This document shows, in pieces, positions 50,832 through 50,914 of a DNA stretch of 64,000 nt. The position numbers were made by a program, and so were the translations under genes. The DNA is from a virus. A model generated the notes under the pieces. It worked only from the letters and a program-made list of their open reading frames with translations, did no database searches and had not been told where the DNA came from. The stretch lies in IMG/VR virus record IMGVR_UViG_3300024261_000015, positions 1 through 64,000 of that record; one strand, written 5' to 3'. Each line of letters begins with the position of its first letter. The first letter of the stretch is position 1.

Positions 50832-50914
50832 TGGAGGAGGTGCGGGGATTCGAACCCCGTTCCACGCAAGTTCCCGCAAGGGGCGTTCCCACGTGTCGAT
50901 ACCAGTACACCCCC
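50832..50914 (-). ncRNA. Mini-tmRNA-like RNA: tRNA-like domain only
   Basis: 5' GGGGGTGTACTGGTATCGAC (ssrA-type 5' end); helix CACGTGGG/CTTGCGTG capped by a short hairpin; T arm CGGGG-TTCGAAT-CCCCG; CACCTCC-T-CCA with G3-U70. Confidence 0.8.

What the first reader, a model, noticed from the sequence alone, without database searches (positions are those of the whole stretch)
50832..50914. Mini-tmRNA: tRNA-like domain only, with no mRNA-like domain; a candidate SmpB decoy or tag-less ribosome-rescue RNA
Seen (- strand): GGGGGTG TACTGGTATCGA CACGTGGG AACG CCC CTTGC GGG AA CTTGCGTG GAA CGGGG TTCGAAT CCCCG CACCTCC T CCA. It has the ssrA-type 5' end, a stemless D loop, helix 2a, a 3-nt linker, a T arm, a 7-bp acceptor with G3-U70 and encoded CCA. 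The pseudoknot/tag region is replaced by a ~17-nt cap, and the order is not permuted. The discriminator is U, not A73. Established: the tRNA-like domain suffices for SmpB binding; G3-U70 is the AlaRS identity element and A73 contributes; tag-less tmRNAs are known from jakobid mitochondria. Inference: an early phage RNA that titrates SmpB to block trans-translation, or accepts nascent chains without tagging them. I do not know of a described phage equivalent.
Basis: partly seen in the sequence, partly recalled or inferred. Interest (0 to 1): 0.9.

Follow-up and report, generated by a model that had tools for sequence, protein, structure and literature searches.

The report
Phage tag-less mini-tmRNA gene
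A marine phage carries a real 83-base gene that copies only the alanine-accepting, tRNA-like end of the bacterial ribosome-rescue RNA (tmRNA); one such RNA was already known from mycobacteriophage DS6A, so this is a further member of a known kind that probably interferes with the host's rescue-and-tagging system.

Summary
Window 50832-50914 (- strand) matches Rfam tmRNA RF00023 end to end (54.8 bits, cut-off 47, E 9e-19), with about 306 model positions replaced by 15 nt. It has a 7-bp acceptor stem with G3:U70, a stemless D loop, an 8-bp helix 2a closed by a 17-nt cap, a T arm, U73 and an encoded CCA. It contains no stop codon, so it has no tag frame.

It is not an artefact. Independent seawater assemblies span the short form, and its relatives are also short.

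It belongs to a large viral family. At least 119 IMG/VR contigs match the pattern. Covariation is strong, and G3:U70 holds in 98 of 98 distinct sequences.

A model built from this family also recovers the published 'TLD only' tmRNA of mycobacteriophage DS6A at 65.8 bits.

The most likely function is competition with host tmRNA for SmpB, and for stalled ribosomes if the RNA is charged. That would suppress ssrA tagging. This is inferred, not shown.

This scan has already found the same kind of RNA many times on other DNA. Verdict: new member of a known kind, moderate to low interest. The local peculiarity is U73 instead of A73, seen in 2 of 98 distinct sequences.

The parts
50832..50914 (-). Mini-tmRNA gene (83 nt): tRNA-like domain of tmRNA with helix 2a closed by a short cap; no mRNA-like domain, no pseudoknots
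   Evidence: Rfam RF00023 54.8 bits, E 9e-19, model 1-374. Family model R1 scores it 75.7 bits, but it was in the training set. Fold.
50908..50914 (-). Acceptor stem, 5' strand (GGGGGUG), including G3
   Evidence: It pairs with 50836-50842. G3:U70 is kept in 98 of 98 distinct family members.
50896..50907 (-). D-loop-like unpaired stretch (UACUGGUAUCGA) with the GG and UCGA(C) motifs of tmRNA; no D stem
   Evidence: Aligned to the Rfam tmRNA consensus with high posterior probability.
50888..50895 (-). Helix 2a, 5' strand
   Evidence: MFE fold. 6 of 7 modelled pairs of this helix show changes on both sides across the family.
50871..50887 (-). 17-nt cap that replaces the whole tag/pseudoknot region: A-rich stretch plus a 3-bp hairpin with a 5-nt loop (CCC-CUUGC-GGG)
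   Evidence: The inner hairpin pairs in 72.8% of cells (MAFFT alignment) and 83.8% (model-fitted alignment). The DS6A RNA has the same element.
50863..50870 (-). Helix 2a, 3' strand
50843..50859 (-). T arm (5 bp, loop UUCGAAU)
   Evidence: 100% of cells are paired and 3-4 of 5 pairs covary.
50836..50842 (-). Acceptor stem, 3' strand (CACCUCC), including U70
50832..50835 (-). Discriminator U73 followed by encoded CCA
   Evidence: U at this place occurs in only 2 of 98 distinct family members (the window and L008); the other 96 have A. A ~95% identical relative in run X21 has A here (place 50835). CCA is encoded in 37 of 98.
50923..51159 (-). Small ORF (78 aa from the ATG at 51159; 106 aa if read from the TTG at 51243) that ends 8 nt before the RNA gene; probably co-transcribed with it. 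No family match.
   Evidence: ORF list, sequence. No PHROG or NCBIfam hit.
51166..51194 (-). Promoter-like site TTGCGT-17 nt-TATAAT upstream of the small ORF and the RNA gene. Seen by eye; it is below the scanner's threshold.
   Evidence: Read. Not reported, because only 3 of 6 positions match in the -35 hexamer.
50769..50797 (-). Near-consensus sigma-70-type promoter (TTGACT-17-TATAAT, 11 of 12) starting 35 nt after the RNA's CCA; it marks the start of the next transcription unit.

Best explanation
This is a functional phage gene for a 'TLD-only' (tag-less) tmRNA. It is the same kind of RNA as the one described in mycobacteriophage DS6A.

Proposed mechanism:
1. The RNA is probably made from host-type promoters in the early-looking region of the phage.
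2. It is cut out like a tRNA. Its CCA is encoded.
3. It folds into the acceptor/T-arm stack, D loop and helix 2a that host SmpB recognises on tmRNA.
4. It has no resume codon, tag frame or pseudoknots, so it cannot complete trans-translation.
5. By occupying SmpB it competes with host tmRNA. If AlaRS charges it, it also competes for EF-Tu and the empty A site of stalled ribosomes.
6. The result would be lower ssrA tagging, and so less degradation of proteins made from broken messages during infection.

What is shown: homology to the tmRNA TLD, selection on the structure and on G3:U70 across the family, family identity with DS6A, and presence in independent assemblies.

What is inferred: transcription, processing, SmpB binding, charging (doubtful here because of U73) and the effect on tagging.
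For: - Rfam tmRNA matches end to end above the cut-off, with only the TLD parts aligned.
- The family is large. These give 90 unique sequences.
- MAFFT alignment of 88 of those 90: 93.0% of cells are paired against 67.6% in shuffles. The covariation score is 0.593 against 0.122 (0 of 500 shuffles reach it) and 0.07-0.11 for slid partners.
- Model-fitted alignment of 100 matches (98 distinct) gives the same picture: 95.2% paired and covariation 0.637.
- U70 opposite G3 occurs in 90 of 90 and 98 of 98, although the search pattern did not fix it. A73 occurs in 96 of 98. This points to selection for AlaRS recognition in the family.
- The family model R1 scores the DS6A RNA (JN698994 28478-28560, not in the training set) at 65.8 bits, E 1e-13. 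DS6A has the same cap hairpin.
[quoted passage not shown] - No SmpB gene was found in the 82.7-kb record, and no protein gene is conserved next to the RNA across the family: the largest neighbour cluster covers 15 of 144 loci. The RNA would therefore have to work with host factors.
- In several relatives it sits inside tRNA gene arrays (L002, L010, L036, L041, L063), which fits tRNA-like processing.
- 4 of 5 bacterial assemblies that hold a mini form also hold a normal full-length tmRNA elsewhere. The mini form is an extra gene, not a replacement.
- Context in the window: the RNA gene has 64% G+C in a 42.9% G+C genome. A 99-bp island of 90% identity to relative L008 lies in rearranged flanks.
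Against: - Nothing here shows transcription, processing, SmpB binding or any effect on tagging. The one RNA-library run (X21) is held as contigs of a ~95% relative, which cannot prove transcription.
- The window copy has U73, not A73. Charging by AlaRS may therefore be poor (A73 as a contributing identity element is recalled, not tested). That weakens the 'enters the ribosome' part for this copy.
- Conversely, the invariant G3:U70 across the family would not be needed for a pure SmpB sponge. This favours the rival in which the charged RNA acts on the ribosome.
- The host is unknown, so compatibility with its SmpB and AlaRS cannot be judged.
- The functional experiment (Mao et al. 2009) was not readable here. 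I know it only through two citing papers, and it was done in E. coli, not in a phage infection.
- The record is an estimated 76% complete, so a phage SmpB could lie in the missing part.
Confidence: 0.6

Rival explanations
1. Tag-less ribosome rescue. The RNA is alanylated and delivered with SmpB and EF-Tu to ribosomes stalled on broken mRNAs, and it accepts the nascent chain. Because there is no message to resume on, the peptidyl-RNA is resolved by host factors (release-factor-type rescue, or drop-off and peptidyl-tRNA hydrolase). Ribosomes are then recycled and the protein escapes the degradation tag. This is the role proposed for the mRNA-less tmRNAs of jakobid mitochondria.
For: - G3:U70 is invariant (98 of 98) and A73 nearly so (96 of 98) across a family whose other stem pairs vary freely.
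- The acceptor/T-arm stack is fully kept.
- CCA is encoded in 37 of 98, and elsewhere the gene sits in tRNA arrays.
- All of these are features needed for charging and EF-Tu delivery but not for binding SmpB alone.
- PMC11915505 states that mitochondrial tmRNA without a tag frame co-occurs with SmpB and is thought to help with incomplete mRNAs.
Against: - The window copy carries U73, one of only 2 of 98, which may lower charging.
- The cited E. coli experiment reports inhibition of tmRNA whether or not the molecule is chargeable (PMC4131195).
- No release factor, ArfB-like gene or hydrolase was looked for, or found, next to the RNA.
- There is no conserved neighbour at all.
Confidence: 0.25
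2. Another tRNA-like role unrelated to trans-translation. Examples: a decoy or sponge for a host RNase or a tRNA-directed defence nuclease, or an Ala donor for a non-ribosomal reaction.
For: - Phage tRNA-like RNAs can serve as decoys, and tmRNA fragments are bound by a phage anti-CRISPR protein in PMC11662646.
- The cap hairpin with an A-rich stretch is conserved in many members, including DS6A, and has no assigned role.
Against: - The conserved parts are exactly the tmRNA-specific ones (GG..UCGAC D loop without a stem, helix 2a, G-A-C linker), which are the SmpB-binding region of tmRNA by established structural work (recalled).
- There is no anticodon loop for anticodon nucleases.
- No partner gene is conserved.
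Confidence: 0.1
3. Not a functional gene: an assembly collapse, a decaying remnant of a captured host ssrA gene, or an attachment-site fragment of a phage that integrates into ssrA.
For: Phages that integrate into tmRNA genes carry the 3' part of the gene in attP (PMC10865867). ssrA fragments in prophages are mentioned in PMC9004378.
Against: - Both the 5' and 3' halves are present and pair perfectly.
- Independent assemblies span the short form with 0-2 differences and no gaps: X7 contig 2042 nt, X9 contig 1677 nt, X17 contig 502 nt.
- Relatives L008, the X21 contig and the X9 variant are equally short.
- Compensatory changes relative to L008 occur in helix 2a and the T arm, and family-wide covariation is strong.
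- No integrase was found in the record.
- Mini forms differ from the co-resident full-length tmRNA in acceptor pairs 5-7, D-loop length and T stem in 4 of 4 genomes compared, so they are not fresh deletions.
Confidence: 0.02

Closest known systems
'TLD only' / CDS-less tmRNA of Mycobacterium phage DS6A (tmRNA Website tmID 11587; Mao et al. 2009 RNA Biol 6:355 as cited in PMC4131195 and PMC11915505)
   Same: - Phage-encoded, about 80 nt.
- Acceptor stem with G3:U70, a stemless GG..UCGAC D loop, helix 2a closed by a short cap with an A-rich stretch and a small CCG/CGG-type hairpin, and a T arm.
- No tag frame.
- Both match the same family model (window 75.7 bits, DS6A 65.8 bits; aligned rows).
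   Different: - The window copy has U73 and an encoded CCA. DS6A has A73 followed by CTA.
- The phage here is a marine myovirus with a Gp23-type capsid protein. DS6A infects Mycobacterium tuberculosis.
- Rfam's tmRNA model calls the window copy at its gathering score but does not call DS6A.
Standard one-piece bacterial tmRNA (SsrA, Rfam RF00023)
   Same: The tRNA-like domain is homologous: 5' GGGG..G acceptor strand, D loop, start of helix 2, G-A-C-type linker, T arm and 3' acceptor strand (alignment).
   Different: The mini form lacks about 300 nt: the resume codon, tag reading frame and all four pseudoknots. It cannot add a tag or end translation on its own message.
mRNA-less tmRNAs of jakobid mitochondria and the ~65-nt CDS-less plastid forms (Jacob et al. 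2004; PMC11915505)
   Same: Reduced to the tRNA-like domain, with no tag frame; thought to act with SmpB (passages).
   Different: Those are the organelle's only tmRNA, produced by reductive evolution. The phage form is an extra gene that meets a host with a complete tmRNA; 4 of 5 assemblies with a mini form also hold a full-length one.
Full-length and two-piece tmRNAs of phages (mycobacteriophage Bxz1 group, Bacillus phage G, marine phage Melnitz; PMC4131195, PMC9004378)
   Same: Phage-borne ssrA homologues, often near early promoters or tRNA genes.
   Different: Those keep a tag reading frame and are found by ARAGORN. The mini form has none and is missed by ARAGORN, which called none of the 60 related loci as tmRNA.

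Membership tests
TLD-only (CDS-less) phage tmRNA, DS6A type | 7-bp acceptor stem with G3:U70 | tested here: met
   G3:U70 is present in 98 of 98 distinct family members, including DS6A.
TLD-only (CDS-less) phage tmRNA, DS6A type | tmRNA-type D loop (GG..UCGAC, no D stem) followed by helix 2a, which is closed by a short cap instead of the mRNA-like domain | tested here: met
   Rfam alignment, fold, covariation of helix 2a.
TLD-only (CDS-less) phage tmRNA, DS6A type | No resume codon or tag reading frame | tested here: met
   Only 17 nt lie between the strands of helix 2a, and there is no stop codon in RNA positions 20-55. ARAGORN reports no tag peptide.
TLD-only (CDS-less) phage tmRNA, DS6A type | Sequence/structure homology with the DS6A RNA | tested here: met
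   Model R1, built from 88 viral sequences without DS6A, scores DS6A at 65.8 bits (E 1e-13) and the window copy at 75.7 bits. The window copy was in the training set.
TLD-only (CDS-less) phage tmRNA, DS6A type | Inhibits host tmRNA function or binds SmpB | not testable with these tools
   Known only from citing passages about Mao et al. 2009. The paper itself is not held.
Canonical tmRNA (RF00023) | tRNA-like domain | tested here: met
   54.8 bits, above the gathering score of 47.
Canonical tmRNA (RF00023) | mRNA-like domain with tag frame, and pseudoknots | tested here: not met
   306 model positions are replaced by 15 nt. It is therefore not filed as a canonical tmRNA.
Canonical tmRNA (RF00023) | A73 discriminator supporting alanylation | tested here: not met
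   U at window 50835. A occurs in 96 of 98 family members.
Ordinary tRNA (RF00005) | D stem, and an anticodon arm with a 7-nt loop | tested here: not met
   No D stem, and the cap hairpin has a 5-nt loop. ARAGORN makes no tRNA call here. Within the clan the tmRNA model wins.

The most novel reading that the evidence does not exclude
The phage mini-tmRNAs may not be mere SmpB sponges. They may be a widespread, charged 'rescue without tagging' device. In this reading Ala-mini-tmRNA takes the nascent chain from ribosomes stalled on messages cut during infection, for example by host defence nucleases or phage-induced mRNA decay. It frees them without marking the proteins for ClpXP-type degradation. 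The U73 lineage seen here (the window and L008) would be a derived, poorly chargeable sub-type that has shifted to pure SmpB titration. Both the breadth of the family in phages and this functional split would be undescribed.
Probability: 0.2. Interest if true: 0.6.

Novelty: new member of a known kind. Interest (0 to 1): 0.33.

Why it matters
Trans-translation is the main ribosome-rescue and quality-control path of bacteria, and some phages depend on it or are affected by it. A small phage RNA that blocks or redirects it would be a compact host-takeover tool and a natural inhibitor of a pathway that is being pursued as an antibiotic target.

The type itself is already in print from one phage, DS6A, so this window adds only another example. 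What may be useful beyond that:
- It is rare in bacterial genomes: 24 pattern hits in 185,579 species genomes, of which 11 score 66 bits or more with the family model.
- ARAGORN, the tool that the phage surveys I read passages of use for tmRNA, misses it (PMC9004378 and PMC7162821).

I found no paper describing that breadth. The library lacks most subscription journals, and supplementary tables were closed.

Tried and rejected
- **Close relatives among cultured phages.** blastn of 2 kb around the gene found nothing. blastn of the 83 nt gave only T-arm-sized matches to tRNA genes. The best of these, Ruegeria phage RpAliso, was fetched and is not a member: 29.5 bits with R1, no D loop or helix 2a.
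- **Fold energy as evidence.** The MFE is no better than shuffles (z -0.23), so I did not use it.
- **A conserved protein partner next to the RNA.** ORFs within 3 kb in 144 loci were clustered. The largest cluster covers 15 loci, and only the GP88-like gene is shared by the window with two other loci. No partner emerged.
- **Phage-encoded SmpB, integrase, ClpP.** None was found in the 82.7-kb record. The record is an estimated 76% complete, so absence is not proven.
- **The AAA+ protein at 36827-38149.** I first suspected a ClpX-like link to ssrA-tag degradation. NCBIfam shows a ClpA/ClpB D2-type module, not ClpX, so I dropped the link.
- **Expression.** The only RNA-library run holding the region (X21, marine sediment) is kept as contigs of a ~95% identical relative. 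Contigs show neither transcription nor RNA ends, so I make no claim of expression.
- **Host prediction.** Not achieved. Capsid and sheath proteins are under 40% identical to cultured phages.
- **Mao et al. 2009.** The paper could not be read. What I say of it comes from passages in two citing papers.
- **Papers.** Only passages returned by 'find' were read from PMC4131195, PMC11915505, PMC11662646, PMC9004378, PMC7162821, PMC7194413 and PMC10865867. All other papers were seen only as search listings. Supplementary files, for example the tmRNA database tables of PMC11915505 that might list further viral TLD-only entries, were closed.
- **Recalled, not from any call.** A73 as a contributing AlaRS identity element; which nucleotides of the TLD contact SmpB; what happens to peptidyl-RNA on a ribosome without a message.

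Full report
**What is there.**

Rfam's tmRNA model (RF00023) matches it from model position 1 to 374 at 54.8 bits (gathering score 47, E 9.1e-19). Only the tRNA-like parts align, and 306 model positions are replaced by 15 nt (repeated).

The minimum-energy fold gives:
- a 7-bp acceptor stem with a G-U pair at the third position
- 12 unpaired bases of the tmRNA D-loop type (GG..UCGAC)
- an 8-bp helix 2a
- a 17-nt cap with a 3-bp hairpin
- a 3-nt linker
- a 5-bp T arm with loop UUCGAAU
- discriminator U and CCA

No stop codon occurs between the strands of helix 2a, so there is no tag frame. ARAGORN calls only two ordinary tRNAs in the window, not this gene. The fold energy itself is unremarkable (z -0.23), so the case rests on homology and covariation.

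**It is a real gene, not an artefact.** The window is part of an 82,710-bp IMG/VR virus record with an estimated completeness of 76%.

The 2-kb region is held by at least 20 seawater metagenome runs. In three runs not flagged as the possible source, single contigs span the short form:
- X7: 2042 nt, 2 differences
- X9: 1677 nt, 0 differences
- X17: 502 nt, 0 differences

None has a gap.

Relatives are just as short. L008, another viral contig, carries a 90% identical copy. It scores 53.7 bits with Rfam and has compensatory changes in helix 2a and the T arm. A ~95% identical relative in run X21, and a variant with different flanks in X9 and X17, are also short.

Between the window and L008 the RNA is a 99-bp island of conservation in rearranged flanks. 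Its G+C is 64% in a 42.9% genome.

**It belongs to a large phage family.** These gave 90 unique sequences, counting the window's own copy (L001) among them.

In a MAFFT alignment of 88 of them, 93.0% of cells pair against 67.6% in shuffles. The covariation score is 0.593 against 0.122 (0 of 500 shuffles) and 0.07-0.11 for slid partners. Six of 7 helix-2a pairs and 3 of 5 T-arm pairs change on both sides.

A covariance model built from this alignment (R1) found one match in each of 100 loci searched. The fitted alignment gives the same picture: 95.2% paired and covariation 0.637.

U opposite G3 is present in 98 of 98 distinct sequences although the pattern did not demand it. A73 is present in 96 of 98, and CCA is encoded in 37 of 98.

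The same pattern hit only 24 places in one genome each of 185,579 prokaryote species. Eleven of those score 66 bits or more with R1, all in metagenome-assembled genomes. In 4 of 5 such assemblies a normal full-length tmRNA lies elsewhere. That full-length tmRNA differs from the mini form in acceptor pairs 5-7, D-loop length and T stem. The mini form is thus an extra, mainly viral gene with its own lineage, not a recent deletion of the resident ssrA.

**It is already known as a kind.** Hudson, Lau and Williams (PMC4131195, passages) list 'Mycobacterium phage DS6A (TLD only)'. [quoted passage not shown]

The 2025 database paper (PMC11915505, passages) repeats this. It adds CDS-less plastid forms and cites the jakobid mitochondrial case.

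I fetched the DS6A region. R1, which was built without it, scores JN698994 28478-28560 at 65.8 bits. This is an unannotated gap between gp33 and gp34. The aligned row shows the same A-rich stretch and small hairpin in the cap.

This scan has also met the same kind many times on other DNA, and earlier agents reached the DS6A comparison too. I re-tested that comparison here rather than relying on it.

I found no paper describing how common the form is in phages. Two phage surveys I looked at use ARAGORN for tmRNA. ARAGORN called none of the 60 related loci as tmRNA.

**Context in the window.** The phage is a myovirus-type virus with these genes:
- Gp23-type capsid protein (6624-8213)
- tail sheath (11084-13282)
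- family A DNA polymerase
- DnaB-type helicase

It has no close cultured relative; identity is below 40%. No integrase, SmpB or ClpP was found in the record.

The RNA gene lies in a - strand block of small ORFs with near-consensus sigma-70-type promoters. Three sites have 11 of 12 matches, at 52227, 50797 and 50609.

It starts 8 nt after the stop of a small ORF (50923-51159). That ORF has a weaker promoter-like site at 51166-51194, which I read by eye.

A strong promoter follows 35 nt after the CCA. This fits early transcription by host polymerase and tRNA-like processing, but neither is shown.

**Mechanism.** The conserved parts are the tmRNA-specific ones. No partner protein is conserved beside the gene, and no SmpB is encoded. 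The RNA must therefore act through host SmpB, AlaRS, EF-Tu and ribosomes.

Without a message it cannot finish trans-translation. The best-supported reading is competition with host tmRNA, which matches the reported inhibition in E. coli. I put this at about 0.6.

The invariant G3:U70 and near-invariant A73 argue that most family members are charged and enter ribosomes. This keeps the tag-less rescue model alive at about 0.25.

The window copy and L008 are the only two with U73, and their ~95% relative in X21 has A at that place. This lineage may therefore charge poorly and act mainly as an SmpB sponge. That is inference.

**Verdict.** This is a new member of a known kind, and its interest is moderate to low.

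Noticed in passing
window 50096-50172 (-); L008 9872-9957 (+): Pistol self-cleaving ribozyme (RF02679, 48.3 bits, cut-off 34.5) directly after the ORF 50179-50523 and about 290 nt upstream of a tRNA-Ile gene. The related contig L008 has one too (58.6 bits) at a different relative position.
   Followed up: partly
window 49441-50791 (-), plus 41140-41151 (-): The motif CTTGACTTTTCT occurs 7 times at up to 1 mismatch, where 0.76 is expected and 0 of 100 shuffles reach 7. All are on the - strand, and six are clustered just downstream of the mini-tmRNA. It looks like a repeated extended -35 box of early promoters; some copies have a TATAAT at the right spacing and some do not.
   Followed up: partly
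window 49729-49806 (-) and 39829-39905 (+): Two phage tRNA genes, tRNA-Ile(UAU) and tRNA-Leu(UAA), both reading A-ending codons.
   Followed up: no
window 36827-38149 (+): A 440-aa single-module AAA+ protein of the ClpA/ClpB D2 type (AAA_2 plus ClpB_D2-small; ClpA 214 bits over residues 137-406), with no ClpP in the record. This is an unusual chaperone or unfoldase gene for a phage of this size.
   Followed up: partly
L003, L005, L017, L019, L033, L040, L044, L049, L054, L065, L067, L080, L099, L104, L106, L119 (mini-tmRNA copies): 16 of 98 distinct family members share a tandem mismatch, U5.C68 plus G6.A67, in an otherwise perfect acceptor stem (GGGGUGG against CACCUCC). They come from several sub-groups, so this is not a sequencing error. 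It is unexplained.
   Followed up: partly
L024 4730-4824, L115 9512-9606, L118 13747-13839, L046 8307-8393: Longer variants (87-95 nt) in which the cap is extended to a longer hairpin. There are also very short variants (66-67 nt; L013, L015, L031, L050, L059) in which helix 2a is closed by a 4-6-nt loop with no A-rich stretch or inner hairpin.
   Followed up: no
window 51518-52192 (-); L008 14151-14624; L034 12564-13238: A GP88-like gene (PF17338, E 2.5e-7; phrog_2554) lies beside the mini-tmRNA in these three loci only. It is upstream in the window and directly downstream in the other two.
   Followed up: partly
window 50824-50914, runs X9 and X17: The same seawater samples hold a second, more abundant variant of the mini-tmRNA. 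It has 9 differences in 91 nt, including the two C-to-U changes seen in L008, and unrelated flanking sequence. A different phage in the same water therefore carries a close copy.
   Followed up: partly
L031 1991-2081 and L052 1899-1981: ARAGORN mis-calls two of the shortest mini-tmRNAs as odd tRNAs (tRNA-Glu and tRNA-Arg with shifted anticodon positions). This is a possible source of wrong tRNA annotations in phage genomes.
   Followed up: no
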